DNA of 64,000 bases, taken from NCBI RefSeq assembly GCF_006345805.1, contig NW_021834004.1, positions 1,026-65,025 on the forward strand, in the 5' to 3' direction. Below the pieces are notes generated by a model that saw only the letters and a list, made by a program, of their open reading frames with translations, did not search any database and was not told the DNA's origin. Shown here in pieces: positions 117 through 63,409 of this stretch (positions are counted from its first letter, which is position 1; every line of letters starts with the position of its first letter). This DNA comes from Octopus sinensis. Lineage: Eukaryota. The translations under genes were made by a program, and so were the position numbers.

Positions 117-298
117 AGGAGTGGCTGCGTGGTGAGTAGCTTGCTTACCAGCCACATTGTTCCGGGTCCAGTCCCACTACGTTGGAACCTTCGGCAAGAG
201 TCTTCTATTAGAGCTTCGGGTCCACCAAGGCCTTGTGAGTGGATTTGGTAGACGGAAACTGAAAGAAGCTCGTCCTATATATCTATATATCTATATAT

Positions 299-341
<43 letters not shown>

Positions 342-652
342 ATATATAATATATATATATGCATGCATATATGTATGTATGCATGTATGTATTGTATATA
401 TGTATGTATGTATGTAATGTACGTATGTATGAGTGTGTATGTTTGTGTGTCTGTGCGTTGTCCCCCCTCCCCACCAACATCGCTTGACAACCGATGCTGG
501 TGTGTTGACGCCCCAGTAACTTAGCGTTTCGGCAAAAGAAACAGATAGAATAAGTACTAGGCTTACAAAAGATAGGTCCTGGGGTCGATTTGCTCGACTA
601 AAGGCGGTGCTCCAGCCTGGCCGCAGTCAAATGACTGAAACAAGTAAAAGAA
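117..652 (+). mobile_element. tRNA-derived SINE family A, with internal microsatellite (~276-450)
   Basis: A/B-box-like head (GGAGTGGCTGCGTGGT...GGGTCCAGTCCC), body ...GACGGAAACTGAAAGAAG, tail ...GGCCGCAGTCAAATGACTGAAACAAGTAAAAG. The same layout recurs at 16110, 19514, 46545, 55543 and 56733. Confidence 0.85.
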
Positions 653-1014
653 TACACACATACATACGCATACATACATACATACATACATACATACATA
701 CATACATACATACATACATACATACATACACGGCACTGCCGAGATGCCGAAACCGTAGTGATATCCGTTCGAGAATAGATGATGAGGATATATGTTTGGT
801 ATGCTTGTTGAGTGTGAATAGCTTAATTCTACGTTGCCCTTCATTCTCCTTAAGATTGAACTCGTCAGAAGGTTCGTCGTTTGTGATACTTTCTTCTTTG
901 CATTATTACAGATGCTGATATTGCATGATCGTCTTCATTGGTAGTCTTATCAGGGTGGATAAATCTGAGAGGTTTTTTTTACATTGGTGGTGCTTGTGAT
1001 ATATATATATATGT

Positions 1015-1187
1015 GTCGTTGCGTTCTGAGTTTAAATTCCGCCGAGGTCGACTTTGCCTTTCATCCTTTCGGGGTCGATAAATTAAGTACCAGTTACGCA
1101 CTGGGGTCGATGTAATCGACTTAATCCCTTTGTCTGTCCTTGTTTGTCCCCTCTATGTTTAGCCCCTTGTGGGCAATAAAGAAACAG

Positions 1188-1261: not shown

Positions 1262-2253
1262 GTATGTGCGTGTGTGTGTGTGTGTGTGAGTGTGTGTAAG
1301 TTTCAGCGCGCATGCGCCCAAATACACAGATACACTCACACACGTATTCATGTTGTTACTCAGTCGCATGTTTGCTCACTCGCAATTTCGCACATATGCA
1401 TTAACAGACGCATGCATAAATAGGTTTCTTTGCACACACACACACACACACACACATATATACACATGCACGCGCGCACACGCACACACCTACACACACT
1501 CGAGCACACACACACACACAAACACACACGCACACGCACCCACACATACATGTCAACCTCTGCTGATGTCACTTAGCAACCAATGATATAAGACCAACAC
1601 ACTCAAACAGGCTCCTTACTGCAATTCGATCATAATCACAACTTAATCTCCAATAAAGGGATAATCGCTTAGCCGGCTACTAACATCACAGGATAGAGAT
1701 AATGTACCGTTTCCATAGTAACCCAACATATCAAGTACCCCCATAATGCATCAGTCACGCTAGGCTTTAGTTCCCAGTGAGCAGTACCGCCATTCTGCTT
1801 TGTATTGATTTTGGAATTAGTAAAAAATAGAATACAATAAATGGGGAAAAAAAACATGAAATAAAAGCAAGATGAGAAATTCCCTCAGGGCGCGTGGATC
1901 TCAGTGGTTAGTAGAATAACTATTAGACGTCCCTAACGACTTTTCTAGAAGATAGGATTAAAGTCTTTGGAACTCCAAAATTACGTGTACTTAGACGGTT
2001 CGGTTGCAGTAATTTATTACCAATAGTTTAATTCAATGTAATTATACACGACTTGTAGAACGAGAAAATTAAGAACATTTATTTCGTGGGATTTGAACCA
2101 GTATATTTAAATAGCCAGATTTTCAACAATAAAACCGCTGGACCAACGAAACTACACTAGAATATTGAAAGTCTCATTCATGGACTTTGTAGAAAAATCG
2201 GGAAATACAATGGCAAGTTAAATATTTCTTAGAAACAACTCAACTACGCTACC

Positions 2254-2495
2254 TATTTCTTTACTACCCACAAGGGGCTACACACAGAGGGGACAAACAA
2301 AGACGGACAAACGGATTAAGTCGATTATATCGACCCCAGTGCGTAACTGGTACTTAATTTGTTGACCCTGAAAGGATGAAAGGATGAAAGGCAAAGTCGA
2401 CCTAGGCGGAATTTGAACTCAGAACGTAACGGCAGACGAAATACGGCTACGCATTTTGCCCGGCGTGCTAACGTTTCTGCCAGCTCGCCACCTTT
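2254..2495 (-). mobile_element. SINE family B, full length
   Basis: tRNA-like head GGTGGCGAGCTGGCAGAAACGTTAG...GAGTTCAAATTCC; 17-bp direct repeat AACTCAACTACGCTACC at 2237-2253 and 2496-2512. Confidence 0.93.
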
Positions 2496-2949
2496 AACTC
2501 AACTACGCTACCCTCATTTCGTACAATCTTACAATTTGATGCGTTACTTTCCAAAGTATTGAACAGTCAGCATGTCTGTCTTTATTTTATGTATTTTGTT
2601 ACAAATATTTAAACCTATTAAAGTTATTGTTGTCGTTGTTTATAAGGCTCAAACAATGCATCGGTGGATTGTTTCTCATGCTGGTGATCGGAAATTCCAA
2701 TAAAACGTTTATCATTTTGTTTGTTTTGGGTTATAGGATGGTTCAGTATTCAACTATTTCCTTCTGTGTGGGGGCAGGGGGGGAGCATTTTTTAAATCTT
2801 TAAACTGTCATGTTTCATCAAATTTTATTTACAAGATATATTTAATTGCTAATTTGCAAATCATTATGTCGATAAATAGATTAGATCGTTACGAATATTT
2901 TTTTGCTAATTGTCTACTTTGTTACATAGTTTCTACACACGAAACAACT

Positions 2950-3153
2950 CTTTCCAGTGCCTGAATTTTTGAAAGGAGGGGCTGGTCAACGACATCGACC
3001 TAGTATTTCACTGGTACATTATTTTATCGCTCACAAAATTATGAAAGGCAATGATGACCTAGGCAGTATTTGAACTCAAAATGTAAAGTGTCGGAAAGAA
3101 TGCCGCCAAGCATTTTGTTCGATGCGCTTACGATTCAGTTACATTGCTGCCTT
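2950..3153 (-). mobile_element. Old diverged SINE-B-related copy
   Basis: Degenerate ATGAAAGGCAA...GACCT...ATTTGAACTCA and head similarity. Confidence 0.65.
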
Positions 3154-7050: not shown

Positions 7051-7113
7051 ACAAGTAAAAAAAATGTTTAAATCTTCCCTTTCTTTAGAATTGAGTTTTG
7101 TTTTTGTTTTTTA

Positions 7114-7499
7114 TCTTTATATATAAAAGTGAAGTTGTGTGTCTGTCTCCTACGATTTAGATTCCTAACTACTCCCACGTTTTGCGGTGCAGTTTAACCA
7201 AAACCGGGTATCTTATAGTCGTGATTCATATCGAGCCCTTCTGGGTATTAGCGCGCGTCTACGATGAGTCTACGATTTAAGAAAAAATTTACCATCATTT
7301 TTTTCCATTTTAATGCATTTTTTCGCTATTATATAAGGGAAGTAACTCTCTAAAAATGTCTACGATGAGTCAACGATATTTAAAAAAATTTACCATCATT
7401 TTTTCCCATTTATTTGCTATCTTTTGGCTATAACTCTCTAAAAATGCTTATATAGTTATCTCCCTTACAAACCCGAGCAACGCCGGGCGATACGGCTAG
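7114..7499 (+). mobile_element. Non-autonomous Helitron
   Basis: Starts A|TC, ends CTAG|T, subterminal hairpin CCCGAGCAACGCCGGG, no TSD; a second copy lies at 57933-58482. Confidence 0.88.
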
Positions 7500-8127
7500 T
7501 TTTATATAAAAAAAAAAAACTAATTCTATACTTGAAATTGTTCATTAGTTATAATTATTTTACAAAACAATATTTTTATGAAATTTACCGATGTAAATTT
7601 GTTTTGATTCATACTAGCTAACTGCTATCTATTGACATTTAGTCAATATCTCCAATCTATATCCGTCGTTTTATATGATAGATTAGTCTATATTTCAAAT
7701 TGTTCTATAGTTATAAATATTTTACGAAATAGTACTACTACAAAAACCAGCCTTTGAAAAATATAGGAAAATTCTTCTTTGGCCGATCGATGAGAAGCCG
7801 TTTGGGTAAAATTGTCGTTTCGATTTTTAAAAAATCGTCCGATTAAGAGTCATTCAACAAAAAGGTCGCGGTAGGAGCGAGCACGTAGGTGCACCTACAT
7901 TTGCCGTGAGGCATTTAAAGGACTTCTCGGTGTTATCTCGTGAATACTCTGCTTTTGTGCAGAAATGAGATCAGACTTAAGTTCACATCAAAGTGGCCCC
8001 AAGATACATTCCTTTGAACAGATATCATTAATACTTATACGTGTGTGAATGTATGCATGCGTGTGTGTATATATGTGTGTGTGTATGTGTGTGTAATATA
8101 ATATAATATATTTTATTATAATTTATA

Positions 8128-8289
<162 letters not shown>

Positions 8290-9578
8290 CGTTTCTTTAT
8301 TGGCCACACAGGGCTACACACAGATGGGACAAATTACAAGGTAGAGCTTTTCTTTTGGGGGTGAAAAAAAAAAGTGGCGTAGGTGTTCGATCAAAAGGGA
8401 TCGTAAAAGGGAAAAAAGAAAAAAAAGGAAAAGAAACAAAGGAAAGGAAAAAAAGAAAAAGAAGAAAAAAGAGGGAAAAAACGATGAATAGGGATCGTGT
8501 ATCACAGTGTCATGATGTACGGTGTAAAGGGGGAAACAGATAAGGTTTATCCGTGAGAAGAAAAGCCTACGAAAAAGACCACGGTAAAATCGGTCAATAT
8601 TGTTATATGTTACCACATTTGTTTGCAAGTGGGTAACCCTCTGTTTTCAATTTCTGGGTTCATAGGATTATGCTCAAGGTGGCTTCGTCATTCATACGTG
8701 CCATCCTTGCTACATTCACCCATCTTTTTTTAAAACATTCGCTAGACAAAACTTGCCTCTCTACTCTCACTTTCCTTTTCAAGTTTCCTTCTTCTACTTG
8801 AAGAAGTTGATGAGAGATTGCCCAGAGAGGAAAGTGTTTGTCTCCAATCCTTTCAGACGCGTCCACCAGATACATTATTTTGCCATAGCCACAAGGATGA
8901 TGAAAATAGCTCTTCCTTCCCGTTTGAAGGAAGGAGGCGTGAAAATATTGACGATAGACTCAGCTGATAAACCGACTCGTCCCACTCGTGACAGCAATTG
9001 TTCGACATAAGCCCACAGGTTGGAAATTGTTGGACACTGCATGAGTGCGTGCAGAACGGTTTCGTCGATCTGACCGCATCTCGGGCAGGTCGGCCCCGTG
9101 TTTCTCGAGCCGTGTCTGTAGAGCTTATCCCGAACGGGTAGCGCTTCTCGGTAGCACTGCCAGGCCAGGGATCTCTGGAAGTTGTCCATGGGCCCTGGCC
9201 CGAAAGTCGTCCCGAACAGGCGGGTCAGGTATTCCTCGTCGACGTCCAGGTTCGTCCCAAGCTCGTCGTCGTACCTCCCCTCCACTTATCCCCTATAGAA
9301 TGCTTGGGTTGTGATGGAGTCACTCAGGGTCGACCCGGGACGGCAAAGTTGCTTGAGAGCAACGCGACACTCGTGGTGCCATTCGCCCTTCCTCGGCCTC
9401 TTTTTGATCCACGACTGCAGTTCGGTCATGGAGACTAGCTGCGGGAAAGCGTGCCTCACAAACGGCGACCACACCTGTTCACCGTCGTCTACGAAAAGCC
9501 TGAGATGTCGCAGTCTCAGTGCGTGTCTGCGCATCATCAACCACGGCATGCCCAGTCCTCCTTTTAACGGGTGTTGAC

Positions 9579-9579
<1 letters not shown>
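8290..9579 (-). mobile_element. Tx1-clade LINE copy 1 (5'-truncated: ORF2 C-terminus plus 3' UTR)
   Basis: [13 protein letters not shown]...; CCHC knuckle CPRCGQIDETVLHALMQCP; F.KRW end; 3' end ...AGCCCTGTGTGGCCAATAAAGAAAC followed by (TATC)n. Confidence 0.92.
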
Positions 9580-9650
<71 letters not shown>

Positions 9651-9680
9651 GGATGGATGGATGGATGGATGGATAGATAA

Positions 9681-9714
<34 letters not shown>

Positions 9715-9791
9715 GGACGGACGGACGGACGGACGGACAGACAGACAGATAGATAGATAGATAGGTAGATAGATAGATAGATAGATAGATT

Positions 9792-9857
<66 letters not shown>

Positions 9858-9947
9858 TAGCTAGATAGATAGATAGATAGACAGACACACAGACAGACAG
9901 ATAGATAGAAAGACAGACAGACAGATAGACAGATAGACAGATAGATA
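9580..9947 (+). repeat. (GATA)/(GGAT)/(GACA)/(GACG) compound array between Tx1 copies
   Basis: Visible directly. Confidence 0.97.
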
Positions 9948-12900
9948 ACTTTCTTTTATTAGCCACACAGGGCTGAATACAGAGGGGACAAATACAAATG
10001 CAGAGCTTTTCTTTTCGAGGTGGAAAAAAAAAAAATGTAAGATTGCGATCAAAGGGATCGAGGGAGGAAAAAAGGAAAAAAGAAAATCGTGTATCACAGA
10101 AATAATGGTAAACATTGATATAACAAGATTGGGTTCATCCGTGGGAAGAAAAGACTACAGAAAAGACCACGGGAACCCCAGTCAGGGAGGAAATAAACAC
10201 ATGAGGTCAAAAATGCTCTCTTTCTTTCTTTTTTACGATCTACAGGATCATGCTCAAAATGGTTTCGTTACTAGCACGCACCATCTTTGCAACATTCACC
10301 CATCTTTTTTTGAATCTTTCGCGAGACAAAACTTCCCTCTCCATTCTCACCTTCCTTTTCAAGTGGTACTTGAAAAAGTTGATGAGCGATTGGCCAGAGA
10401 GGTAAGTGTTTGTCTCTAATCCTTTCGCTCGAGTCCACCACACCACATTCTTTCACCATGGCCACCAGTACGATGAAAACTGCCTTGCCTTCCCGGTTGA
10501 GGGAAGGGGGCGGAGCAATTCTCACGATAGACTCGGCCGATAGGCGGATTCGTCCCACACGTGACAGCAGCCGTTCGGCATAAGCCCACAGGTCGGAAAT
10601 GGTTGGACATTGCACGAGTGCGTGCAGAACGGTTTCGTCGCTCTGACCGCATCTCGGGCAAGTCGGTCCAGTGTGTCTGGAACCGTGTCTGTAGAGCTTA
10701 TCCCGAACAGGTAATGCTTCTCGATAGCACTGCCAGGCCAGAGATCTTTGGTGATTGTTCATAGGTCCCGGCCCGAAAGTTGTCCTGAACAGGCGGGTCA
10801 GGTGTTCCTCGTCGACGCCCAGACTCTGCCCGAGTTCGTCGTCGCACCTCCCCTCCACTAATCCTCTATAGAATGCTTTGTTGTGATGGAGTCGCACAAG
10901 TTCGATCCCGGACGGCAGAGTTGCTTGAGAGCAACGCGACACTCGCGGTGCCATTCGCCTAGCCTCGGTCTCTCTGCTTGATCCATGACTGTAGTTCGTC
11001 CAAGGAGACGAGCTGCGGGAAAGCGCGCCGCACAAAAGGCGACCACCCCTGTTCACCGTTGTCTATGAAGCGCCGGAGATGTCGCAGTCTCAGCGCATGT
11101 CTGCGCATCATCAACCACGGCATGCCCAGCCCTCCATTTAGCGGGTGTTGGCAGCAAATGGATCGCCTAACCATCGGAACGTTTCCCTTCCACAAGAAGC
11201 GGAAGAGTATGCGTTCCAGTTTGGTGATGGTAGGGTCGGGACAAGGCACGACGGTCAGACGATACTCGATGACGGATGCGATGTACGCGTTCGCCACCTC
11301 CGCCCGACCTTTTAGCGATAGCTTTCTCTCAGTCCATTTCTGGGTGAGAGAAGCCACCCTAGTCGTTATCTCGCCCCAGTTCTTCTCCATTTGGAGGTCC
11401 GGACCGAACCAGACCCCGAGCAATTTAACCGGTCCGTCCGTCCAGCGTCCCACGATGGAGACGCTGTTGGACGGCATGGGCTTGCTTCTCCAGGTGCCGA
11501 GCCGCAAGCCCACTGACTTTTCCCGGTTAATTTTTGCTCCCGTTACCGCTTCGTATTCTTTCAGTGTCTCGCCGACCAGCTCGATGTGCTCGTAGCTCGA
11601 CACTATGACGGTGACGTCATCCGCGTATGCAGACAGCTCATCCCGCATCCCAGCTCTCGTGGGATGCCCCTCAGCGTCGCCAGTTTCCGCAGTAGTGGCT
11701 CAGAGTCAGTACATACAGCAGCGATGAGAGGGGGCATCCCTGACGACCGAACGCATGATGTTAAAAGGTCTGGATAGATGACCATTTACGCGAACTACTG
11801 AGCGGATGCCGCTGTATAAGGCAGCGATCCAACCGCGGAAAACTGGACCGAAACCAGCCGCTTTGAGGACAGCCTCCAAGTAGTGATGGTCTATACCCTA
11901 TCGAAGGCTTTTGATTGATCCAAATTGATCAGCGCCCCACCCATGCCAGGATTTTAACTACCCGTCTATGATGTAGCGCCATCAGATGGAGGTTGTCATG
12001 AATAACTTCTCTACCCGCACGGCGCATGTTTGCGCCTTGTCGATTAGTTTCTTGATGACAAGCGCCAACCTCTCGGCTAACACCTTGGCCAAAATTTTCA
12101 AATCTGCGTTCAGCAGAGTGATGGGCCTGAAATTATCTATGACGTCCCCCTTGTTTGGGTCTTTCTTGATCAGTGCCACTGCTCCTCGCTTTACAAAAGC
12201 AGAATACTCCCGTTCTGCTGCCAGTTGCAGTAGACAGCTGCCAAGACGCCTCCAAACAAGTCTGGCATATGGAAATAAAATTCGTAGGGCAGACCATCCA
12301 AGCCTGGTGACTTGTCTCTCGCGCAGCCTACCATCGCATCCCTGTACATCCGCAGCTGTGATAGGCTTTTCACAAGACTCCACCTCCCTTGCTGAGAGTC
12401 GTGGCAAGGCATGCAGGTAGGCACTAAAGTCCACTCTGCTTTCTGACTCACCACTTGTCCCAAACAGTTGGGTGAAGTGTTGTTGAAAACCCCCACACAT
12501 CCTTTTAGGCTCGAGCAATTCGCGCCCCTGTTCATCTATAAGAGACTTGATGGTGGCTCTGTTGCCTCGTTGCGTCTCCACCACTCGGGCCTCTTGGGCG
12601 GCTCCAACTCCTTCGTTCCTCAGAGCACGCATCCTAGCTCTGACAACGCATCCCTCGTGTTTGGCGTTGAGGTGTTGGTCGAGGGCCAATCTCGCCGCCA
12701 GTACTTTGGACGCGATGCCAGTCTTAAGTGCCTCTTCTAAAACCTTAACTAATTCTCCCTCTATTCTATTTCGGTCTAATGCTAAGGCTCTACTGTATCT
12801 GGCTGATTCTGCTTTAATCGCTTTTTTTAGGGCATACCACCATCTGTTGTTGATGATGGTACCCGTCAAAGCTCTCTTACTAATGTGCTGATCCGGTCCC

Positions 12901-13766
12901 TGTAAACCTGTCGTGCTGTAAAAGACGCGTTCAGTTTCCAGTAACCAGGACCCTGCCTATGTGTCTTATCTAAGTCAAGTGTACAAGTCACAAACTTGTG
13001 ATCTGTGTAACTGACTATATGAAATTGTGGACAACCTACACTATTTTTGTCTATTGTCCTACAGAATACTCTGTCTAAGTATGATCTGGACGACCCGATG
13101 CGGTTACTCCATGTCCACATTGGCACATTCGGGTGGTCCAGTCGGTACCTGTCAGACAGTTGGAAACGTCTGAGCAGGTCTTTGAGGCATTTGCATCCCC
13201 TCTATTGCTATCTCTGCCCACGTAGTCTAGATGCGTGTCCAGGGTGGCATTCCAATCCCCCACTAAAAGTAAAGGACGAGACGTTCCCATGAAAGACTCT
13301 AGACGTCGAAAGAAATCTGGTCGGCCTGTTAAGGACGGAGTATAAACTGCTATCAGTCGAAAAGCACACTCATTGCTGCCATCGACATCCAAAACGACCA
13401 GCCTACCCTCCGGGTCTAGGAAATTTGCTCTTACTTTGAGATCCAGACTCTTCCGGATAAGCACCGCGGTGCACCTCCGCCCATTCTCGGTAGACACGGA
13501 GAAAAAATAAATGTTGAAATGTGTACCGAAAATGTGCTGGAGTGCCCGCAAGCTGTGGAGTCTGGTCTCACTGATGGCTATGATATTAAGATTTAGTGAC
13601 TTGATGTAATTTAACAGGTAGCCTTGTTTCCAAGGCGACCCCAAGCCACGTACATTTATACTACCTATTCTGAGCATGTTCCGATAAAAGTGCAAAAAAG
13701 GAAAAGGAGAGAGAAAAGGTACTTGTTTTTCGAAAGTTCTTTGTCTTTCACCTCACGGTCTTCTTC
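9948..13766 (-). mobile_element. Tx1-clade LINE copy 2 (whole ORF2 plus 3' UTR; distinct subfamily)
   Basis: APE, RT and CCHC motifs in order; flanked on both sides by (GATA)n. Confidence 0.95.
10240..13677 (-). pseudogene. Frameshifted ORF2: AP endonuclease, reverse transcriptase and zinc knuckle
   Basis: MLRIGSINVRGL, ISETRL, VGDWNATLD, SYLDRVF, TDHKFV, GPGYWKLN, KSPGLDGLP.EFY, FRPITLLNADLKILAK, AYADDVT, GAKINREKS, GGLGMP, CPRC..DETVLHALVQCP; split over about 8 ORF pieces. Confidence 0.92.

Positions 13767-13858
<92 letters not shown>
13767..13858 (+). repeat. (GATA)n array between Tx1 copies 2 and 3
   Basis: Visible directly. Confidence 0.97.
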
Positions 13859-14764
13859 TTGTTTCTTTATTAGCACACAGGGCTGCACACAGATAGAACA
13901 AATTACAAGGTAGAGCTTTTCTTTGAAGGTTAAAAAAAAAAAAAAGGAAGGGGGAGTTTCGATCAAAAGGGATCGTAAAAGGAGAGAAAGAGGACAAAAA
14001 AAAGGGGGGTAGGGTTAAAAAAAGGGGGAGAGGAAAAAAAAATTGATCAATAGGGATCGTTATCACAGAAATGTCAATATGAAGTGTAAAGGGGAGGACA
14101 GGTGAGGTTTACCCGTGGAAAGAAAAAGCCTACGGAAAAGACCACGGTAACCTCGGTCAATGGAGTCACATGTTATATTTCTTTCTTTTTTTTTGCGAAT
14201 AAGCAACTCTCTGTTTTCAATCTGGGGTTCATGGGATCATGCTCAAGGTGGCTTCGTCATTCATACGTGCCATTCTTGCTACATTCACCCATCTTTTTTT
14301 AAAAACTTCGCTAGACAAAACTTGCCTCTTACTCTCACTTTCCTTTTCAAGTTTCCTTCTTCTACTTGAGAAGTGATGAGAGATTGCCCGAGAGGAAAGT
14401 GTTTGGTCTCCAATCCTTTCAGACGCGTCCACCAGATACATTCTTTCGCCATAGCCACAAGGATGATGAAAATAGCTCTTCCTTTCCGTTTGAAGGAGGG
14501 AGGCGTGACAATATTGACGATTAGACTCAGCTGATAAACGATTCGTCCCACGTGACAGCAGTGTTCGACACAAGCCCACAGGTCGGAAATTGTTGGACAC
14601 TGCACGAGTGCGTGCAGAACGGTTTCGTCGCTCTGACCGATCTCGGGCAGGTCGGCCCGTGTTTCTCGAGCCGTTGTCTGTAGAGCTTATCCCGAACGGG
14701 TAGCGCTTCTCGGTAGCACTGCCAGGCCAGGGATCTCTGGAAGTTGTCCATGGGCCCTGGCCCG
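13859..14764 (-). mobile_element. Tx1-clade LINE copy 3 (5'-truncated; same subfamily as copy 1)
   Basis: GPGPMDNFQRSLAWQCYREALPVRDKLY, near-identical to copy 1; same 3' UTR motifs; a short (GATA)n at 14765-14788 closes the cluster. Confidence 0.92.
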
Positions 14765-15804
14765 AGATAGATAGATAGACAGATAGATGTAGCTCTACTC
14801 AATTATTCTTTCCTGTTAGGCCGCAATTATAAGCGCATTATGTATAATTAAATACTATAAAATATCTTAGCTATTTATACTATATTTAATTACTATTTAT
14901 ACTGTAGAGCTCTTTAACATAAAGAAATCTCGGTTTGGCACTGAACTGTTAGCCAATAGAGAAGCGGAATATCTGCTTAGCTAGCAACTTAAACCAGTGT
15001 GGGGCGAACACAACCCACTAACACTGAAGCTGACCATTTGTAAGACAAACGACATCAAAAGGTCATCAGTTTTGAAGGTAGAGTGCTGTTTGATAGCATC
15101 GACTTTAGGCATGTGAATTTATTGACCCCGGAGAAATGAAAGGCAAAGTTGATCCCAGCGGGATTTGAACTTGGAACTTATAGAGTCGAGTTGTAACAAT
15201 GATTGCAAGGCATATTTTATCGACGCTCTAACAAGTCCCCGCCTTACAGCACGAATCAACAATGATCCACAGATGTAACATCGAAAAATAATGGCATAGA
15301 TTTATAATCTCAACATCAATGACATCAACATCATTGCATGAAATATCAGGTCAAAAACGAGCTTCTGCATAGTTGATCAACACACTAGAAACAGCAGCTA
15401 AGTTCCTTTTTAGATTATACTCTACTTCCTTCAAAAGTATTGGACAGATCTGATCATGTAGTCCTAGATACACAATACTCGGTAACGTGTTGGAGTGGTT
15501 TGGAAATTTTCGTCAAGATAGACTTTGGGCAAAACAATAACAACACCACCAATTTGTGATGGCCTTCAAGGCTCAAAAGAATTGTTTCACCTCGTTTCAA
15601 TATTTAATATTTAGAATAGATTCTATGGACATATTCGGTTGCCTATCAATTCTATAAATAGGAAATTTAAACCTAGACATCATGATCAATCAAGGTCGAA
15701 TTTGGCTGGTACAGTCTACGTTATTTCCAAAATATACTCAGTAAAATATGCTGATGGGTACATGGCCGCGCGCACACGCACATACACACTCACACACATA
15801 CACA

Positions 15805-16081: not shown

Positions 16082-16109
16082 AGATCTTCTGTGTCTGCAT
16101 ATATATATT

Positions 16110-16342
16110 CTCTTACTCTTTCTCTTTTACATGTTTCAGTCATTTGACTGCGGCCCTGCGAGCACCGCCTTTAATCGAGCAACTCGACCCCGGGACTTAT
16201 TCTTTTGTAAGCCCAGTACTTATTCTATCGGTTTCTTTTGCCGAACCGCTAAGTAACGGAGACATAAACACACCAGCATCGGTTGTCAAGCAATGCTAGG
16301 AGACAACACAGACACACACACGCATATATATATATATATATT

Positions 16343-16398
<56 letters not shown>

Positions 16399-16580
16399 AT
16401 ATATATATACATATATACAACGGGTTTCTTTTCAATTTCCGTCTACCAAATTCACTCACAAGGCTTTGGTCGCCCGAGGCTATAGTAGAAGACACTTGCC
16501 CAAGTGCCACGCAGTGGGACTGAACCCGGAACCATGTGGTTGGTAAGCATTGCTTCTTACCACACAGCCACTCCTGCGCT
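16110..16580 (-). mobile_element. SINE family A
   Basis: Reverse complement of the family A layout, with internal (TA)n. Confidence 0.88.
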
Positions 16581-16595
16581 TATATATTATATATA

Positions 16596-18844: not shown

Positions 18845-19234
18845 GTGGAGGCGCAATGGCCCAGTGGTTAGGGCAGCGGACTCGCGGTCGTAGGATCGCG
18901 GTTTCGATTCCCAGACCGGGCGTTGTGAGTGTTTATTGAGCGAAAACACCTAAAAGCTCCACGAGTCTCCGGCAGGGGATGGTGGTGATCCCTGCTGTAC
19001 TCTTTCACCACAACTTTCTCTCACTCTTACTTCCTATTTCTATTGTACCTGTATTTTCAAAGGGTCGGCCTTGTCACTCTCTGTGTCACGCTGAATATCC
19101 CCGAGAACTGCGTTAAGGATGCACGTGTCTGTGGAGTGCTCAGCCACTTACACGTTAATTTCACGAGCAGGCTGTTCCGTTGATTCAGATCAACCGGAAC
19201 CCTCGTCGTCGTAACCGACGGAGTGCTTCCATCC
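18845..19234 (+). mobile_element. SINE family C, full length
   Basis: Head GGAGGCGCAATGGCCCAGTGGTTAGGGC...GGTTTCGATTCCC; 12-bp TSD AAGAAAGCGAAA at 18833-18844 and 19235-19246. Confidence 0.93.
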
Positions 19235-19513: not shown

Positions 19514-19737
19514 TTTTTTTTTACTCTTTTATTGGTTTCAGATATTTGACTGCGGCCAGGCTGGAGCACCACTTTTAGTCGAACAAATCGACCCCAGGAC
19601 ATATTGTTTGTAAGCCTGGTACTTATTCTATCAGTGTCTTTTGCCAAACCGCTAAGTTACAGGGGCGCAAACATACCAACATCGGTTGTCAAGCGATGGT
19701 GGGGGCACAAACACAGACACAGAAACATATAACTATG

Positions 19738-19781
<44 letters not shown>

Positions 19782-19814
19782 TAATCCAAACATGAAAACA
19801 CAAAGAGAAAACAC

Positions 19815-19852
<38 letters not shown>

Positions 19853-20031
19853 TGTGTGTGTGTGTATGACGGGCTTCTTTCAGTTTCCGTCTACCAAATC
19901 CAATCACATGGCCTTGGTCCGCCCGAGGCTGTAGTAGAAGACACTTATCGAAGGTGCCACGCACTGGGACTGAACCCGGAACATTGAGGCTGGTAAGCAA
20001 GCTGCTTACCACACAGCCACTCCTGCGCCTA
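19514..20031 (-). mobile_element. SINE family A
   Basis: Family A head and tail with internal (TA)/(TG) arrays. Confidence 0.87.
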
Positions 20032-20189
20032 TATGAAAATGAATCTAAGACGAACACTAGTATGCTTCCATATCTACCTTGTAGACGTAATTTTTATAGT
20101 ATCTCGAAGCAAACATATAAAGCTATAAATAATATATAAATATTGGATTTTCAAACCCACAGTTGCATGCTAATATTCATAGCTTTCTA

Positions 20190-20405
20190 AAGGTGGCGAG
20201 CTGGCAGACTCGTTAGCACACCGGAATAAAATGTTTAGCGGCATTTCGACCGTCTTTACGTTCTGAGTTCAAATTCCGCCGAGGTTGACATTGCCTTTCA
20301 TCTTTTCTGGGTCGATAAATCAAGTACCATTTGAGTACTAGGATTGTTATGATCGACTGTCCAACTCACCACAAAATCCAGGCCTTGCGCCTATAGTAGA
20401 AGGGA
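20190..20405 (+). mobile_element. SINE-B head/body with an alternative tail running into (ATT)n
   Basis: GGTGGCGAGCTGGCAGA...GCCTTTCATC body; tail GGCCTTGCGCCTATAGTAGAAGGG-ATTATT replaces the Tx1-like tail. Confidence 0.8.
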
Positions 20406-20435
20406 TTATTATTGTTGTTGTTGTTGTTGTTATCA

Positions 20436-21707
<1,272 letters not shown>

Positions 21708-21788: not shown

Positions 21789-21792
<4 letters not shown>

Positions 21793-22116
21793 TAGTTTTA
21801 TTTTTATAGCGTGCTTTCACTTCACTACCGAGTGCAGCTCTGTGTGCCTTGGGTATGTGCTGTGATTTGTTGTGATGCTCTGATGATTACTGTATGGAAA
21901 GTGTTCTGCGTGGGATGTGTGCAGTGCCTAGTAGTGCAATTTTCTGTATGTTATATGTGTTTGTAAGTCCTGGTGTTTTTGTTATGTATTTGTCTGAATG
22001 TTTTTTTATCATGCCTAATGCACCTACTATGATAGGAATTGTTTCTGTTTTTAGATTCCACATTCTGGTTACCTCTATTTCCAGGTCTTTGTATTTTCAA
22101 AAATTTTTTCCATTTC

Positions 22117-26695: not shown

Positions 26696-27087
26696 GGGGA
26701 TAGAAGCACTCCGTCGGTTACGACGACGAGGGTTCCGGTTGATCCGAATCAACGGAACAGCCTGCTCGTGAAATTAACGTGCAAGTGGCTGAGCACTCCA
26801 CAGACACGTGTACCCTTAACGTAGTTCTCGGGGATATTCAGCGTGACACAGAGAGTGACAAGGCCGGCCCCTTGAAATACAGGTACAACGGAAACAGGAA
26901 GTAGGAGTGAGAGAAAGTTGTGGTGAAAGAGTACAGCAGGGATCACCACCATCCCCTACCGGAGCCTCGTGGAGCTTTTAGGTGTTTTCGCTCAATAAAC
27001 ACTCACAACGCCCGGTCTGGGAATCGAAACCGCGATCCTATGACCGCAAATCCACTGCCCTAACCACTGGGCCGTTGCGCCTCCACT
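26696..27087 (-). mobile_element. SINE family C, full length
   Basis: 10-bp TSD ATAAAGATAT at 26686-26695 and 27088-27097. Confidence 0.93.
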
Positions 27088-29426: not shown

Positions 29427-29811
29427 GGTGGAGGCGCAATGGCCCAGTGGTTGGGGCAGCGGACTCGCGGTCGTAGGATCGCGGTTTCGATTCCCAGACC
29501 GGGCATTGTGAGTGTTTATTGAGCGAAAACACCTAAAGCTCCACGTGGCTCCGGCAGGGGATGGTGGTGATCCCTGCTGTACTCTTTCACCACAACTTTC
29601 TCTCACTCTTACTTCCTGTTTCTGTTGTACCTGTATTTCAAAGGGCTGGCCTTGTCACTCTCTGTGTCACGCTGAATATCCCCGAGAACTACGTTAAGGG
29701 TACACGTGTCTGTGGAGTGCTCAGCCACTTACACGTTAATTTCACGAGCAGGCTGTTCCGTTGATTCGGATCAACCGGAACCCTCGTCGTCGTAACCGAC
29801 GGAGTGCTTCC
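29427..29811 (+). mobile_element. SINE family C, full length
   Basis: 11-bp TSD ATTTATATAAG at 29416-29426 and 29812-29822. Confidence 0.93.
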
Positions 29812-30179
29812 ATTTATATAAGACAAGCTCAGGCCCTTGGCCAATATGCAGGCTACCTCCCGTCATGAACATCTCTAACGTAACTATAATTGCCCTCTAC
29901 ATCTCGGACCTAGCTCGGCTCACACAGCCCCCACTCAGGCATTGCCAACCTATTCACCTCTTCTCCTTTTCATCAGCCTTGCTGAGTCAGCATCCCCAGG
30001 ATTCCACACCACGCATTACAATCGACAGTGAGAGTTGGCTTCTAACTGCACCGAACAATACGACGTTAGTGTGGTGCTGATGTGTGCTTCGATATTTCAG
30101 CAAAAAGGGAGAGCGCGTCTTTAGATGGGTGTATGTGTGCGATGGTTAGTAGATGCAGCGCTGTGTTTGTGCATACTTT

Positions 30180-32925: not shown

Positions 32926-33059
32926 CATACATGCATACATATATATACATATACATATAAATATGTATACTTAAACATACAGAAATATATACAATACGTA
33001 TATACACTCATATAACAATATATGTACACACATACACAATAATACACGTACATATATAT

Positions 33060-33265
33060 ATTTCTTTACTGCCCACAAGGGGCTAAACATAGAGGGGACA
33101 AACAAGGACAGACGAAGGGATTGAGTCGATTATATCGCCCCCAGTGCGAAACTGGTACTTAATTTATCGACCCCGAAAGGATGAAAGGCAAAGATGACCT
33201 CGGCGGAATTTGAACTCAGAACATAACGACAGACGCGCTAACGTGTCTGCCAGCTCGCCGCCTTT
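33060..33265 (-). mobile_element. SINE family B (internal deletion)
   Basis: 15-bp TSD CACGTACATATATAT at 33045-33059 and 33266-33280. Confidence 0.9.
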
Positions 33266-39816: not shown

Positions 39817-40564
39817 GTATGTATGTATGTATGTATGTATGTATGTGCAGATTTGCATGTTTTATGTATGTATTCTAAAGCATATAGTTGCATATCTAGC
39901 CACGCTCATATATATTTAAATGATAAACTTCTGGTAAGTTTACAGATTTTTACGGTTCCAGTGATGGATTGTATCTGTAATCTTCGAATTAGCTTTCTCT
40001 TTTCTGGTTTTGAGAAGCCTAATTTCTCAAGATTGGTATTTAGGCAGTGTGTTGCGTATCCCAGGGCCCCAATAATTACAGGTATAAACCTGAACTTGTA
40101 ATCTGTATAGTGTAACTGCAGATTTCTCACTAATTCAGCATAGGTGTTCTGTTTTTCACTGGACTTCAGCTTTATGTTAACATCCGCTGGGCAGCTAATT
40201 TCCACAACTGTACGCAGTTTCTCTTCTCTATCCCGAATCATTATATCAGACCTGTTGTGCTTACATTTTATTGAGGTCTTCACCGGGACATTGCACCAGT
40301 ATTCCTTTTTATCAGGAGTGGCTATGGCTTCTACCATATAGTGGGTTCTTATTTCTATGTCCTCAGGGTTATCTACATCTTGTAGATGTCCTAACTACAT
40401 CTTGTCTCATCGGTGGATAATGGCGTGATGACATTTTCGGATACCTGCTTATGATGTGGGTGATATCTTCAGTGTGAACTCCACAAAGTCTGCATCGGTT
40501 GTCACATTTTACTGCTTTTCCTGCATCTCTATCCCTTTTGTGCATCCAGTATTTATTTGGTTGA

Positions 40565-40795
40565 GGCGGCGAGCTGGCAGAAACGTTAGCGCGCCGGGCG
40601 AAATGCTTAGCGGTATTTCGTCTGCGTTACGTTTTGAGTTCAAATTCCGCCGAGGTCGACTTTGCCTTTCATCCTTTCGGGGTCGATAAATTAAGTACCA
40701 GTTGCGCACTGGGGTCGATGTAATCGACTTAATACCTATGTCTGTCCTTGTTTGTCCCCTCTGTGTTTAGCCCCTTGTGGGTAATAAAGAAATAG
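40565..40795 (+). mobile_element. SINE family B, full length, nested in the R4-type LINE
   Basis: 16-bp TSD GTATTTATTTGGTTGA at 40549-40564 and 40796-40811. Confidence 0.94.
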
Positions 40796-41178
40796 GTATT
40801 TATTTGGTTGATATTTCCTGTTCCTGATTGCAAACGCTTACCCTTTAGAGTGGGAGTTGGCTATTGGTCCATGATGGACTGCTTTCATGATCGATGTTAC
40901 TCTCATTTCAGAGCTTTCTACTAACATATCCATGCATAGTCTTCTCCTCATACAGGTTCATCCTTTCATCTGATGATACATTGCGGCAGAGCCGTGCGAC
41001 TTCTTTGGGCCTGTATTCTAGGTTATCAGACAAAGAGTGTTACTCAAGGAGCTGCCTTCCAAGTCTCATGTATGTATGTATGTATGTATGTATGTATGTA
41101 TGTATGTATGTATGTATGTATGTATGTATGTATGTATGTATGTGTGTGTGTGTGTTGATATATGTGTGTCGTTGTCGT

Positions 41179-41518
41179 GGCACTCTGTCGGTTACGGCGA
41201 CGAGGGTTCCAGTTGATCCGATCAACGGAACAGCATGTGGCTGAGCACTCCACAGACATGTGTTCCTTAACGTAGTTGTCGGGGAGATTCAGCGTGACAC
41301 AGAGTGTGACAAGACCGGCCATTTGAAATACAAGTACAACACAAACAGGAAGAAAGAGTGAGAGAAAGTTGTTTTGAAAGAGTACCACCACTGTTGGAGC
41401 CACTTGGAACTTTAGGTGTTTTTGCTCAATAAACACTCACAATTCCCGATCTGGGAATCGAAACCGCGATCCTACGATCGCGAGTCCATTGCCCTAACCA
41501 CTGGCCATTGCGCCTTCA
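41179..41518 (-). mobile_element. SINE family C (diverged)
   Basis: Same head and tail as the 18845 copy, with deletions. Confidence 0.85.
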
Positions 41519-49059: not shown

Positions 49060-49293
49060 CTATTTCTTTACTACCCACAAGGGGCTAAACACAGAGGGGA
49101 CAAACAAGGACAGACAAAGGGATTAAGTCGATTATATCGACCCCAGTGCGTAACTGGCACTTATTTAATCGACCCCGAAAGGATGAAAGGCAAAGTCGAC
49201 CTCGGCGGAATTTGAACTCAGAACGTAGCGGCAGACGAAATACTGCTAAGCATTTCGCCCGGCGTGCTAACGATTCTGCCAGCTCGCCGCCTT
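49060..49293 (-). mobile_element. SINE family B, full length, inside an older opposite-strand SINE remnant
   Basis: 16-bp TSD GAGCTCTATAAAGTAC at 49044-49059 and 49294-49309. Confidence 0.94.
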
Positions 49294-55062: not shown

Positions 55063-55542
55063 TAGATATATATTTGTGTGTGTATGAGCGTTGTGTGTGT
55101 GTGTGTATGAGCGTGTGTGTATATCTATCACTATCTATCTGTATATATATGTGTGTGTGTGTATGTATGTATGTATGTATGTATTATGAATGCATGTATG
55201 TATGTATGTATGTATGTATGTATGTATGCATGTAGGTAGGTAGGTAGGTAGGTAGGTAGGTAGGTAGGTAGGTAGGAAGGTAGGTAGGTAGGTAGGTAGG
55301 TAGGTAGGTAGGTAGGTAGGTAGGTAGGTAGGTAGGTAGGTGGTAGGTAGGTAGGTAGGTAGGTAGATATGTTAAAGCGCACGGTTTAGTAGTTAAGGTG
55401 TTGCACTCACGATTGTGAGACCGTGGGTTCGATTCCCAGCACTTCATTTCACGTTGCTCTGTGATCATTTCGACATCTGACATGTGGCACCCATTTTCAA
55501 CTATATAGGTAATGTCGATCCGATGAAGGAAGTGAGCTTATA

Positions 55543-55763
55543 CTCTTACTCTCTTTACTCTCTTACTTGTTTCAGTCATTTGACTGCGGCCATGCTGGAG
55601 CACTGCCTTTAATCGAGCAACTCGACCCCGGGACTTATTCTTTTGTAAGCCCAGTACTTATACTATTATTTTTGCCGAATCGCTAAGTAACGGGGACATA
55701 AACACACCAGCATCGGTTGTCAAGCAATGCTAGGGGACAAACACAGACACACAAACACACACA

Positions 55764-55822
<59 letters not shown>

Positions 55823-56068: not shown

Positions 56069-56200
56069 TGTGCACAAACATTTGATCACTATAAACAAAT
56101 CAAATGTGTGGATGTTCGATAAGAAATTGTTGAACCCTCATGCGTCGTCTAACGACGGGAGAGTCCACTGTGTATATATAAACGAATAGATAGAGATAAG

Positions 56201-61412: not shown

Positions 61413-62573
61413 ATTATACACACAAAGAAAGTGAAAAGGAGAAAAGCAGGGAAATTGGAGGCAGATAAGTTAGAGAGGCAGTTTAATCAGATAGAAAAAA
61501 CATTTTGATTGTTGCATTTTGGGGGTAAAAATACATAAACTAAAAATATATAAGCGAACTACGATGAAGCTGCTCTTTAGGCACGTGAGAAGTGTGATAA
61601 TGTTTAGACACGTGACAAATGTGTTAATGTTTATATCTAATCAATGTATATATGGGTAATTTCAAAACCACACATCTCTGTAGTTGTCGATCTAAACCGG
61701 ATTTTGCCAAGATATATATTTGTAAACAAAACTGAAACATTTTTAGAGATTCCGCAACTGCTATATCTATTTTAATGTTAGTTTAAGTTTCACATGAAGC
61801 ATGTTGTTGATGAGGGATTAGATCTGGATGTGGTCGGGGTGGCGGGTGTGAGGGTGATAATGGGCGAGTTAGTCACTCTGTAGAATGGGATCTATGCCTA
61901 GCCGGGTGTGTATAGGTATGGATGTGTCTATATGTGTCTATATATGAGTGTCTAGGTCTATATATATATATATATATATATATCTGTGTGTATGATGCTG
62001 TTGGTGTGTGCGTGTGTGTGTGTGCGTGTGTGCGTGTGTGTGTGTGTGTGTGTGTGCGTGTGTGTGTGTGTGTGCGTGCGTGTGTGTGTGTGTGTGTGTG
62101 CGTGTGCGTGTGTCTGTGTGTGTGTGTGTGTGTGTGTGTCTGTCTGTGTGTGTGTGTGTGTGTGTGTGTGGTCGTGTGTTCAGAAACCGAAAAAATATGT
62201 AAGAGCACGCGGGAAGACAAACCATTTTTAAAACTGCGGAAATAGAAATGGAATGAGAGAGGGAAGGACAGTGTTGTGAGAGTAAACTGAGAAGAGGGGT
62301 TGAAGACAATGTTTAACGTTATTGTTATGGAGCGAGACGAGGAAAAAAACACACAAGACAAGAACTGGGCCGTGCTGTAATGCACTGAGTGAACTACCAA
62401 ATGACCCTTTGTATCATGAGACGAAATAGAGAGAGAGCAGCCGACACGCTATAACGGGAAGAAATGGAAAACGCAGAGGGTACCCCCAGAACCCAGGAAA
62501 CTAAATGGGAAAGAAGGCGTTAAACTGACAGATTTGTGAGAGTGTCGGTTAAAACTGCCTCGCGGTATTTGTT

Positions 62574-63331
62574 CTGAGTTCAAATTCCGCCGAGGTCGAC
62601 TTTGCCTTTCCTCCTTTCGGGGTCGATTAAATAAGTACCAGTTACGCACTGGGATCGATATAATCGACTTAATCCGTGTGTCTGTCTTTGTTTGTCCCCT
62701 CTGTGTTTAGCCCCTTGTGGGTAGTAAAGAAATATATATTGTCACGCATGGACAGTTGATATTCAAGGCGCAGATCTGCATGACTATGTGTGTGTCTGTG
62801 TGTCTGTGTGTGTGTGTGTCTGTGTTTCTATAGAAGACCTTTATATGTCCTTCTTATCTTCATGGTATCAAATATCGCCGAAGATAACTTTGCCATCATG
62901 AAACACCAGTCTAGAAGGAAGAACGGGAGGAACTGTTAGATCGTCGACCGAAATACCTTGCGCTGTTTGTTCTAACTCTACATTTTGAGTTCTCCTACGA
63001 CAATCTAGAGCTTCGGGTCTTTGCTTTCCTTAAATATTTGATACAGTGAAGATAGGAAGGACATATAAAGGTCTTCTATAGAAACACACACACACACACA
63101 GACATACAGACACACACATAGTCATGCAGATCTACGCCTTGAATATCAACTGTCCATGCGTGACGATATATATTTCTTTACTACCCACAAGGGGCTAAAC
63201 ACAGAGGGGACAAACAAGGACAGACAAACGGATTAAGTCGATTATATCGATCCCAGTGCGTAACTGGTACTTATTTAATCGACCCCGAAAGGATGAAAGG
63301 CAAAGTCGACCTCGGCGGAATTTGAACTCAG
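62574..63331. repeat. ~300-bp inverted duplication (SINE-B 3' part plus unique flank) with a 158-bp spacer
   Basis: 62574-62875 is the reverse complement of 63034-63331 with few mismatches. Confidence 0.92.
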
Positions 63332-63409
63332 TACGTAGCGGCAGACGAAATACCGTTTAGCATTTTGTCCAGCACGCTAACGTTTCTGCCAGCTCGCCAC
63401 CTTTAATAA
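63171..63409 (-). mobile_element. SINE family B, full length
   Basis: TSD GTGAC(G/A)ATATA at 63160-63170 and 63410-63420. Confidence 0.9.

What the first reader, a model, noticed from the sequence alone, without database searches (positions are those of the whole stretch)
2254..2495. SINE-B shares its structured 3' end with the Tx1 LINE: a candidate Tx1-mobilised SINE
Seen: SINE-B ends TTTGTCCCCTCTGTGTTTAGCCCCTTGTGGG(T/C)A(A/G)TAAAGAAA. The Tx1 copies end TTTGTCCCCTCTGTATTCAGCCCTGTGTGGCTAATAAAAGAAA (copy 2, ~9950-9993) and TTTGTCCCATCTGTGTGTAGCCCTGTGTGGCCAATAAAGAAA (copy 1, ~8292-8333). Both keep a terminal stem-loop (GCC..GGC or GCCC..GGGY) just before the A-rich end. Established: shared LINE/SINE tails mark partner pairs, typically in the L2, CR1 and RTE clades, whereas mammalian L1 needs only poly(A). 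Inference: this is a stringent-type SINE partner of an animal Tx1-clade LINE, a pairing I know of as uncommon.
Basis: partly seen in the sequence, partly recalled or inferred. Interest (0 to 1): 0.8.

Follow-up and report, generated by a model that had tools for sequence, protein, structure and literature searches.

The report
Octopus SINE carrying an L1/Tx1-type tail
A very common short repeat in this (likely octopus) genome ends in nearly the same 42 bases as a neighbouring L1-type retrotransposon, so it likely borrows that lineage's copying enzyme by mimicking its tail, a pairing that would be rare for this group in animals, though the proposed hairpin signal and the exact partner are unproven.

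Summary
Observation largely confirmed. The 242-nt SINE at 2254-2495 (minus strand, 17-bp target duplication) and six other copies share their last 42 nt with three LINE copies at 76-86% identity. Shuffles do not reach this (0/2000 for LINE copies 1 and 2). Neither element has a poly(A) tract. Between two LINE subfamilies the last 65 nt (83%) are as conserved as ORF2 (84%) and more than the rest of the UTR (55%). The LINE is L1-superfamily; Tx1 is favoured on RT scores but not proven. The stem-loop is weak: 3-4 bp, different registers, no two-sided covariation, folding no better than shuffles. The named copies may not be the partner: all 3 sit in (TATC)n arrays and 0 of 6 SINE insertions do. 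SINE targets begin GTA/ATA/TAT instead, and a fourth, (ATT)n-embedded relative matches the upstream part of the SINE tail. Best reading: tail taken from, and mobilised by, this LINE lineage (0.7), probably a sister family. A 58-pair survey lists only three L1-clade-tailed SINEs, all from plants or algae; I found no animal case in print, but could not check Repbase or Dfam.

The parts
2254..2495 (-). SINE-B, full-length copy (242 nt, with an 8-nt internal duplication)
2237..2253 (.). 17-bp target-site duplication, 3' side of the element
2496..2512 (.). 17-bp target-site duplication, 5' side of the element
2405..2495 (-). tRNA-like head: paired ends, B-box-like motif at 2410-2418, degenerate A-box-like motifs (box consensus recalled); no tRNA call by ARAGORN or Rfam
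2319..2404 (-). central body shared with relatives that carry other tails (CORE-like by recall only)
2254..2318 (-). 65-nt tail module, swapped for another tail in the relatives at 20189, 51974 and 2992
2256..2297 (-). 42 nt shared with the LINE 3' ends
8292..9579 (-). LINE copy 1, 5'-truncated, ORF2 C-terminus plus 3' UTR; shared tail 8292-8333
9950..13767 (-). LINE copy 2, 3.8 kb, 5'-truncated, broken ORF2 (APE endonuclease, RT, zf-RVT in separate frames), no ORF1; shared tail 9950-9992
13862..14765 (-). LINE copy 3, 5'-truncated; shared tail 13862-13902 with a 1-nt deletion in the stem
8146..8289 (.). (GATA/GACA)n array at the 3' junction of LINE copy 1
9576..9947 (.). (GATA/GACA)n array between LINE copies 1 and 2
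13769..13858 (.). (GATA)n array between LINE copies 2 and 3
14766..14785 (.). short (GATA/GACA)n array at the 5' junction of LINE copy 3
20537..21706 (+). LINE copy 4: distant relative (61-62% to copies 1-3) with (ATT)n on both sides; its last 62 nt align with the SINE tail module
1014..1184 (+). SINE-B copy, 5'-truncated, in (TA)n
33059..33265 (-). SINE-B copy with internal deletion, 15-bp duplication
40564..40794 (+). SINE-B copy, 16-bp duplication
49061..49293 (-). SINE-B copy, 16-bp duplication; reference for the read lay
63171..63404 (-). SINE-B copy; one insertion with 62571-62734, which lies in an inverted duplicate of it
62571..62734 (+). partial SINE-B inside the inverted duplicate of the 63171 locus
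20189..20410 (+). relative with the same head and body but another tail, followed by (ATT)n

Best explanation
SINE-B is a high-copy short repeat with target-site duplications whose last 42 bases match the 3' end of an L1-superfamily (likely Tx1-side) LINE; it likely acquired that tail from this LINE lineage and is likely copied by the ORF2 protein of one of its members, which would recognise the tail instead of a poly(A) tract. Steps. (1) Inferred: Pol III transcribes the SINE from its tRNA-like head. (2) Inferred: ORF2 binds the tail, by sequence and perhaps a weak interrupted hairpin. (3) Inferred from junctions: the APE endonuclease nicks near a TA step and reverse transcription is primed there, leaving the 15-18 bp duplications that are seen. 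(4) Inferred: the driver is more likely a sister family with loose site choice than the (TATC)n-bound copies next door; pairing of the RNA's last few bases with the nicked DNA may help pick GTAT/ATAT sites. Shown: the tail match, the absence of poly(A), the duplications, the LINE's domains, the different insertion sites.
For: Tail match 76-86% over 42 nt in 21 of 21 pairs, above shuffles and window background, ending at the 3' terminus of both elements. The tail is a swappable module: the same head and body carry other tails in 3 window copies and in a loose-end class in 4 of 4 runs. No poly(A) tract in 7 of 7 SINE and 3 of 3 LINE ends. LINE copies 1 and 2 share 55/66 in the last 65 nt, 175/321 in the rest of the UTR and 725/862 in ORF2, so the LINE tail looks constrained. 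The distant copy 4 has a related tail that aligns end to end with the SINE's last 62 nt (0/2000 shuffles for 3 of 3 SINE copies; 3, 141 and 201 of 2000 for LINE copies 2, 1, 3), which points to the tail being native to the LINE lineage. Target duplications of 15-18 bp in 5 of 6 insertions by script, 11 bp in the sixth by eye. Duplications carry TA within the first 3 nt in 5 of 6 and at nt 3-4 in the sixth; background 0.19; the LINE junctions run into TATC. In 4 of 4 runs a top loose-end class (568-1318 contigs) joins the SINE tail to a GTAT site at position 51 of another copy, and one listed joint (49293 to 49230, run X3) fits a 14-16 bp duplication there. Other repeats in the window do not match: ends of 10 copies of three other repeat families score 11-26 against the four LINE UTRs, and two 3' ends of another LINE type score 14-18 against the SINE tail.
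Against: 0 of 6 SINE insertions lie in GATA/GACA arrays (nearest 728-6401 nt away) while 3 of 3 tail-sharing LINE copies do. No structural support: z-scores not significant, no two-sided covariation, registers differ. The SINE lacks the conserved block just upstream of the shared 42 nt and the two internal UTR hairpin-like motifs of copies 1-3. The copy-4 alignment used a scoring scheme chosen after seeing the data on TG/TC-rich sequence; the local test gave 10-148 of 2000. The TA count is post hoc and is inflated by overlap with the SINE's own AT-rich end; two of three duplications of a control SINE family also begin AT. No LINE-type loose end at the tail boundary was among the 24 shown (1801 hidden). 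No genome was held, so other LINE families were not screened. No activity was tested.
Confidence: 0.7

Rival explanations
1. The tail came from this LINE lineage once, but it is now a passenger: present-day copying is done by another LINE, or in a relaxed way that needs only the A-rich end.
For: Target sites differ from the tail-sharing copies (0 of 6 against 3 of 3 in TATC arrays). SINE copies are 92-98% alike in 10 of 15 pairs (86-89% for the 5 pairs with the copy that has an 8-nt duplication) but only 76-86% like the LINE tails. O. vulgaris has recently active RTE, Dong-R4 and CR1 families too (PMC13282606 Table 1).
Against: No poly(A) and no simple-repeat tail of another LINE type on any of 7 copies. 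The SINE-to-LINE distance is about the distance between LINE copies 1 and 2 in the same 42 nt (37/43), so an unseen sister family could close the gap. 13 L1-Tx1 families are recently active in O. vulgaris.
Confidence: 0.16
2. Transfer ran the other way: an ancestor of the (TATC)n family captured the 3' end of this abundant SINE, by template switch or recombination.
For: The SINE is very abundant (267,496-615,644 contigs laid per run), and the match to copies 1-3 stops sharply at 42 nt.
Against: Copies 1 and 2 differ in the tail about as much as in ORF2, so the tail is as old as their split, while SINE copies are much more alike. Copy 4, 61% identical, has a related tail. The SINE's head and body also occur with other tails, the usual sign that SINEs take tails.
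Confidence: 0.09
3. The likeness is convergence of TG-rich sequence plus an AATAAA-like signal, with no common origin.
For: Both ends are low in complexity; another SINE family in the window holds a 24-25 nt look-alike of the upstream part of the tail.
Against: 0/2000 dinucleotide shuffles for copies 1 and 2; background maximum 22 against 54 and 42; 27 of 47 columns invariant across 10 ends, nearly without gaps; both matches are terminal.
Confidence: 0.03

Closest known systems
Stringent SINE/LINE pairs of the L2, CR1, RTE and I groups (UnaSINE/UnaL2; bivalve CORE, V, Meta SINEs with CR1-Zenon, Nimb, L2, CR1)
   Same: tRNA-like head, exchangeable tail, short 3' match to a LINE UTR within the range used to call partners (35-61 bp, 72-95%; PMC11481361).
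   Different: The LINE here is L1-superfamily. No terminal microsatellite repeat belongs to the SINE. The stem-loop, shown by experiment for zebrafish L2 elements (PMC4176376 abstract), is unsupported here.
Maize/sorghum ZmSINE2, ZmSINE3 with LINE1-1_ZM, and Chlamydomonas SINEX-3_CR with L1-1_CR
   Same: The only three L1-clade-tailed SINEs among 58 pairs; about 45-50 nt of conserved LINE 3' end shared with the SINE (PMC3472496; PMC3747384).
   Different: Those are plants and an alga, end in (A)n or (T)n, and the monocot stem has compensatory changes. This is an animal, has no homopolymer tail, shows no covariation, and its LINE relatives sit in microsatellites.
Crocodilian SINEU with Tx1-Mar
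   Same: A SINE proposed to be mobilised by a Tx1-clade LINE in an animal (PMC4494074).
   Different: SINEU has snRNA heads and poly(A) tails, the link rests on shared target preference, and no LINE sharing the SINEU-1 3' end was found. Here the tail is shared and the target preference is not.
Microsatellite-targeting Tx1 families (Kibi, Koshi; crocodilian TTCC/TTTC families)
   Same: APE-type LINEs inserted in microsatellites (as described in PMC4494074).
   Different: Targets here are (TATC)n and (ATT)n; the lineage forms its own branch with Argonauta proteins, apart from the named fish and frog Tx1 proteins.
Octopus OR2 (CORE-SINE; Ohshima and Okada 1994, not read)
   Same: tRNA-derived octopus SINE with a central domain (as cited in PMC4758252 and PMC5804259); SINE-B is probably this family or kin (recall).
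   Different: I could not see the OR2 sequence, so identity is untested. I found no partner LINE reported for it.

Membership tests
tRNA-derived SINE | short (<1 kb), interspersed, high copy, non-coding | tested here: met
   231-242 nt; 7 tailed copies in 64 kb; 267,496-615,644 contigs laid in each of 4 runs
tRNA-derived SINE | target-site duplications | tested here: met
   15-18 bp in 5 of 6 insertions by script, 11 bp in the sixth by eye
tRNA-derived SINE | [quoted passage not shown] | tested here: inconclusive
   B-box-like motif with 1 mismatch in 4 of 4 full copies, A-box-like only with up to 3 mismatches (consensus recalled); no tRNA call
tRNA-derived SINE | transcribed by RNA polymerase III | not testable with these tools
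   only contigs, no raw RNA reads, were offered
CORE-SINE / octopus OR2 | central CORE domain; identity to the OR2 consensus | not testable with these tools
   no consensus could be read; resemblance is recalled
L1 superfamily LINE | ORF2 with N-terminal APE endonuclease, RT and C-terminal zinc motif, closest to L1-type proteins | tested here: met
   PF03372, PF00078 (below curated cut-off on the partial piece), PF13966; best solved relatives are human L1 ORF2p and its endonuclease, far above R2
Tx1 clade | RT groups with Xenopus Tx1 rather than with mammalian L1 | tested here: inconclusive
   P0002 (77% to the window piece): 279 bits to Xenopus Tx1 ORF2 against 172-174 to human L1; P0010: 316 against 234-236. 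The window's own endonuclease piece scores 18 to Tx1 and 29 to L1. The 41-row tree has no L1 anchor and shows a separate 100/100 branch
Tx1 clade | target-sequence preference (common, not universal) | tested here: met
   3 of 3 copies flanked on both sides by GATA/GACA arrays, which cover 1196 of 64000 nt; all three are in one cluster; copy 4 is in (ATT)n
Tx1 clade | ORF1 of Tx1 type | not testable with these tools
   all copies are 5'-truncated
stringent SINE/LINE pair | SINE 3' end homologous to the LINE 3' terminus | tested here: met
   42 nt, 76-86%, above shuffles
stringent SINE/LINE pair | LINE 3' end conserved among its subfamilies, no reliance on poly(A) | tested here: met
   55/66 against 175/321 for the rest of the UTR, one subfamily pair; no poly(A) in 10 of 10 ends
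stringent SINE/LINE pair | conserved stem-loop with compensatory changes | tested here: inconclusive
   weak stem can form; 0 two-sided changes in 8 distinct sequences, too few to decide
stringent SINE/LINE pair | same insertion signature in SINE and partner | tested here: inconclusive
   not met for the (TATC)n array itself (0 of 6); both have TA at the start of the target
stringent SINE/LINE pair | tail-dependent trans-mobilisation by the LINE's ORF2 | not testable with these tools
   needs a retrotransposition assay

The most novel reading that the evidence does not exclude
This is the first animal L1/Tx1-group LINE lineage shown to use a specific, poly(A)-free 3' tail and to carry a tail-sharing SINE, one of the dominant repeats of octopus genomes. 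The SINE uses the enzyme of a microsatellite-targeting lineage yet escapes the microsatellite, because its own last bases, not the endonuclease alone, choose GTAT/ATAT sites. That would place stringent recognition next to the vertebrate L1 branch and give a natural system for how L1 relaxed to poly(A).
Probability: 0.3. Interest if true: 0.75.

Novelty: new variant of a known kind. Interest (0 to 1): 0.52.

Why it matters
Ohshima (PMC3472496) proposed that L1-clade elements began as stringent tail readers and relaxed to poly(A) in parallel in plants and mammals; the stringent examples given are plant and algal. An animal L1/Tx1-side lineage with a conserved poly(A)-free tail and a tail-sharing SINE would supply the missing animal case and a testable system. 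It would also name the likely engine behind part of the octopus SINE expansion (SINEs are 11.6% of the O. vulgaris assembly, PMC13282606), for which I found no partner reported. The mechanism class itself, tail mimicry, is well known.

Tried and rejected
No genome is held for this window, so there was no genome-wide screen. Scans for more copies found nothing usable: viral contigs 1 chance hit, 0 hits and 0 relatives; prokaryote genomes 30 hits of a 20-nt pattern, all titled as bacterial records and treated as chance without reading each; metagenomes 0 of 70 protein candidates and 0 pattern hits. ARAGORN and Rfam gave no tRNA call for the head. RNAalifold gave a consensus energy of -0.16 kcal/mol with no covariation. 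I tried an 11-pair interrupted hairpin: 92% of cells pair in the SINE register and 86% in the LINE register, against 39-58% for slid controls, but it was derived from these sequences and has no two-sided change, so it is not counted as support. The variant table of the read lay shows no variant in the stem among the 40 rows shown, but 60 rows are hidden and known window variants near the end are missing, so it was not used. A search for a LINE-type loose end at the tail boundary was uninformative for the same reason. The OR2 consensus could not be read. Cluster look-ups gave no clade names for the close relatives. The 29 'TX1' hits in PMC4176376 are protein-mutant names, not the Tx1 element. 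Look-ups of earlier scan findings gave nothing on this genome or sequence and one unrelated note. Rejected: chance similarity; the two 3' ends of another LINE type in the window as partners.

Full report
What is there. The window is microsatellite-rich animal DNA; close protein relatives come from Argonauta hians (66-72% identity), so the host is likely an octopod. The finding is a 242-nt repeat on the minus strand at 2254-2495 with an exact 17-bp target-site duplication. Seven copies in the window carry the same tail; two of them are one insertion inside an inverted duplication, leaving six insertions. Laid against four public runs, one copy drew 267,496 to 615,644 contigs per run, so the family is very abundant. 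The element is modular: a tRNA-like head with a B-box-like motif (no tRNA call), a central body, and a 65-nt tail module that is replaced by other tails in three window relatives and in a loose-end class in all four runs.

The tail match. The last 42 nt of the SINE match the last 42-43 nt of three LINE copies (8292-8333, 9950-9992, 13862-13902) at 76-86% in all 21 pairs. For 4 of the 7 SINE copies tested against dinucleotide-shuffled LINE 3' regions, no shuffle of 2000 reached the score for copies 1 and 2; for copy 3 the counts were 0, 3, 0 and 0. The best of 256 background windows scored 22 against 54, 42 and 35. The match is terminal in both elements and stops at the same base in all three LINE copies. 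None of the 10 ends has a poly(A) tract. Between copies 1 and 2 the last 65 nt are 55/66 identical, the rest of the UTR 175/321 and ORF2 725/862; this is one pair of subfamilies, but it suggests that the tail is under constraint in the LINE. Ends of ten copies of three other repeat families and two 3' ends of another LINE type in the window gave no comparable match.

The structure claim is weak. A small stem forms in the minimum-energy fold of 9 of 10 isolated tails but in only 2 of 5 SINE and 2 of 3 LINE ends once 70 nt are folded. No tail folds better than its shuffles. The SINE stem has 4 bp and a 5-nt loop, the LINE stem 3-4 bp and a 6-nt loop, one base out of register; there is no two-sided change in any pair. 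That a stem survives the three differences between SINE and LINE in this stretch is a hint and no more; 8 distinct sequences cannot decide it.

The LINE. Copy 2 is 3.8 kb, 5'-truncated and broken into frames that carry an APE endonuclease, RT and zf-RVT; copies 1 and 3 hold only the C-terminus and UTR. The closest solved proteins are human L1 ORF2p and its endonuclease, so the element is L1-superfamily. An intact close relative (P0002) scores 279 bits against Xenopus Tx1 ORF2 and 172-174 against human L1; a full-length relative (P0010) 316 against 234-236. Against this, the window's own endonuclease piece scores 18 with Tx1 and 29 with L1, and in a 41-row RT tree without an L1 anchor the lineage forms its own 100/100 branch apart from the named Tx1 proteins. 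The three copies lie head to tail in one GATA/GACA microsatellite cluster, each flanked by arrays and truncated at a different point, which fits the target preference common in Tx1 elements (PMC4494074). 'Tx1-like L1-superfamily' is the fair label.

Which LINE drives the SINE. None of the six SINE insertions lies in a GATA/GACA array, while all three tail-sharing LINE copies do. The SINE duplications are 15-18 bp in five insertions and 11 bp by eye in the sixth, and begin GGTAG, GTAC, GTAT, ATAT, ATAT and TATAT. TA lies within the first three bases in 5 of 6, against a background of 0.19; the count is post hoc and overlaps the SINE's AT-rich end. The read lay adds an independent sign: in all four runs one of the six best-supported loose-end classes (568-1318 contigs) joins the SINE tail to a GTAT site at position 51 of another copy, and one listed joint fits a 14-16 bp duplication there. 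A fourth LINE copy (20537-21706), only 61-62% like the others and set in (ATT)n, has a tail that matches the upstream part of the SINE's tail module that copies 1-3 do not share. End-to-end alignment beat all 2000 shuffles for 3 of 3 SINE copies, but the stricter local test gave 10-148 of 2000. Taken together the tail looks native to this LINE lineage, and the donor or present driver is more likely an unseen sister family than the (TATC)n copies. An alternative within the same reading is that the enzyme has only a loose TA preference and the last bases of each RNA pair with the nicked DNA to choose the site; this is inference.

Mechanism and odds. Tail taken from, and mobilisation by, this lineage through tail recognition and target-primed reverse transcription: 0.7. 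Tail as a relic with another driver: 0.16. LINE captured the SINE end: 0.09. Convergence: 0.03. No step of transcription, binding or mobilisation was observed.

Comparison with what is in print. Ohshima 2012 (PMC3472496; part 1 of 3 read) lists 58 SINE/LINE pairs with only three L1-clade tails, from maize and a green alga. The 2013 review (PMC3747384; passages, section 1.4 and parts 4 and 8 of 8 read) has no octopus entry and mentions Tx1 in two places, neither a SINE pair. Kojima 2015 (PMC4494074; passages) assigns crocodilian SINEU to Tx1-Mar by shared targets, with poly(A) tails and no shared 3' end. The bivalve survey (PMC11481361; passages and section 13) names CR1-Zenon, Nimb, L2 and CR1 partners and never mentions Tx1. 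The O. vulgaris annotation (PMC13282606; parts 1-2 of 3 and a supplement search) reports 13 recently active L1-Tx1 families and names no SINE partner in what I read. Passages only were seen of PMC4758252, PMC8967140, PMC3531059, PMC5804259 and PMC5786205; abstract, section 20 and passages of PMC4176376. Ten searches found no report of an animal SINE sharing its tail with an L1/Tx1 LINE. The library lacks most subscription papers, including Ohshima and Okada 1994 and 2005, which I did not read. Repbase, Dfam, the SINEBase supplements and the Zenodo library were not visible and may already note the pair. The SINE is probably OR2 or kin, which is recalled and untested.

Verdict. A real, statistically solid SINE/LINE tail match of a known kind, with an unusual partner group. 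The structured-tail and exact-partner claims are open. New variant of a known kind; interest 0.52.

Noticed in passing
window 8146-14785: Three LINE copies of two subfamilies (75-76% and 93% alike over the compared stretch) are stacked in the same orientation in one GATA/GACA microsatellite cluster; a (TATC)n-preferring L1/Tx1-type family did not turn up in my literature search.
   Followed up: partly
window 20537-21706: A distant relative of the same LINE lineage sits in the (ATT)n run behind an other-tail SINE, so sister families may prefer different microsatellites.
   Followed up: partly
window 8400-8590, 10050-10190, 13960-14140: The 3' UTRs of LINE copies 1-3 keep two self-complementary motifs upstream of the shared tail (CCGTG...CACGG and CGATC...GATCG) that the SINE lacks; not folded.
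   Followed up: no
window 49243 (SINE position 51): SINE-B tails join other SINE-B copies at one internal GTAT site in 4 of 4 runs, a likely self-insertion hotspot.
   Followed up: partly
window 20189-20410, 51974-52053, 2992-3136, 51059-51156: Older relatives share the head and body of SINE-B; three of them continue into a different tail, whose partner LINE is unknown.
   Followed up: partly
window 117-654, 16106-16585, 19514-20035, 55539-56072: A second SINE family of about 500 nt with an internal microsatellite shares short body motifs with SINE-B, including a 24-25 nt look-alike of the upstream tail, and ends in a small hairpin and an A-rich end without poly(A).
   Followed up: partly
window 18845-19234, 26698-27086, 29428-29813, 41180-41518: A third, young SINE family of about 390 nt with 10-12 bp duplications in three copies; its tail does not match these LINEs.
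   Followed up: partly
window 21790-22110 and 39906-41000 (minus strand): Decayed 3' ends of another LINE type (Dong/R4-like by recalled motif; no Pfam hit for the 39909-40394 frame); the SINE-B copy at 40564 lies in or just upstream of the second.
   Followed up: partly
window 62571-62875 and 63034-63334: A 305-nt inverted duplication (95%) that copies the 3' part of a SINE-B insertion and its flank.
   Followed up: no
proteins P0005, P0038: A protein filed under a Herbaspirillum metagenome bin is 65% identical to this LINE's ORF2, likely host DNA in the bin.
   Followed up: no
proteins P0006-P0030: A large unnamed family from ENA assemblies, about 50% identical, is the sister branch (100/100) of the octopod LINE; its 3' ends would test the age of the tail.
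   Followed up: no
window 7113-7515 and 57932-58498: Two copies of a repeat starting ATCT and ending in a short hairpin plus CTAGT, Helitron-like by recall.
   Followed up: no
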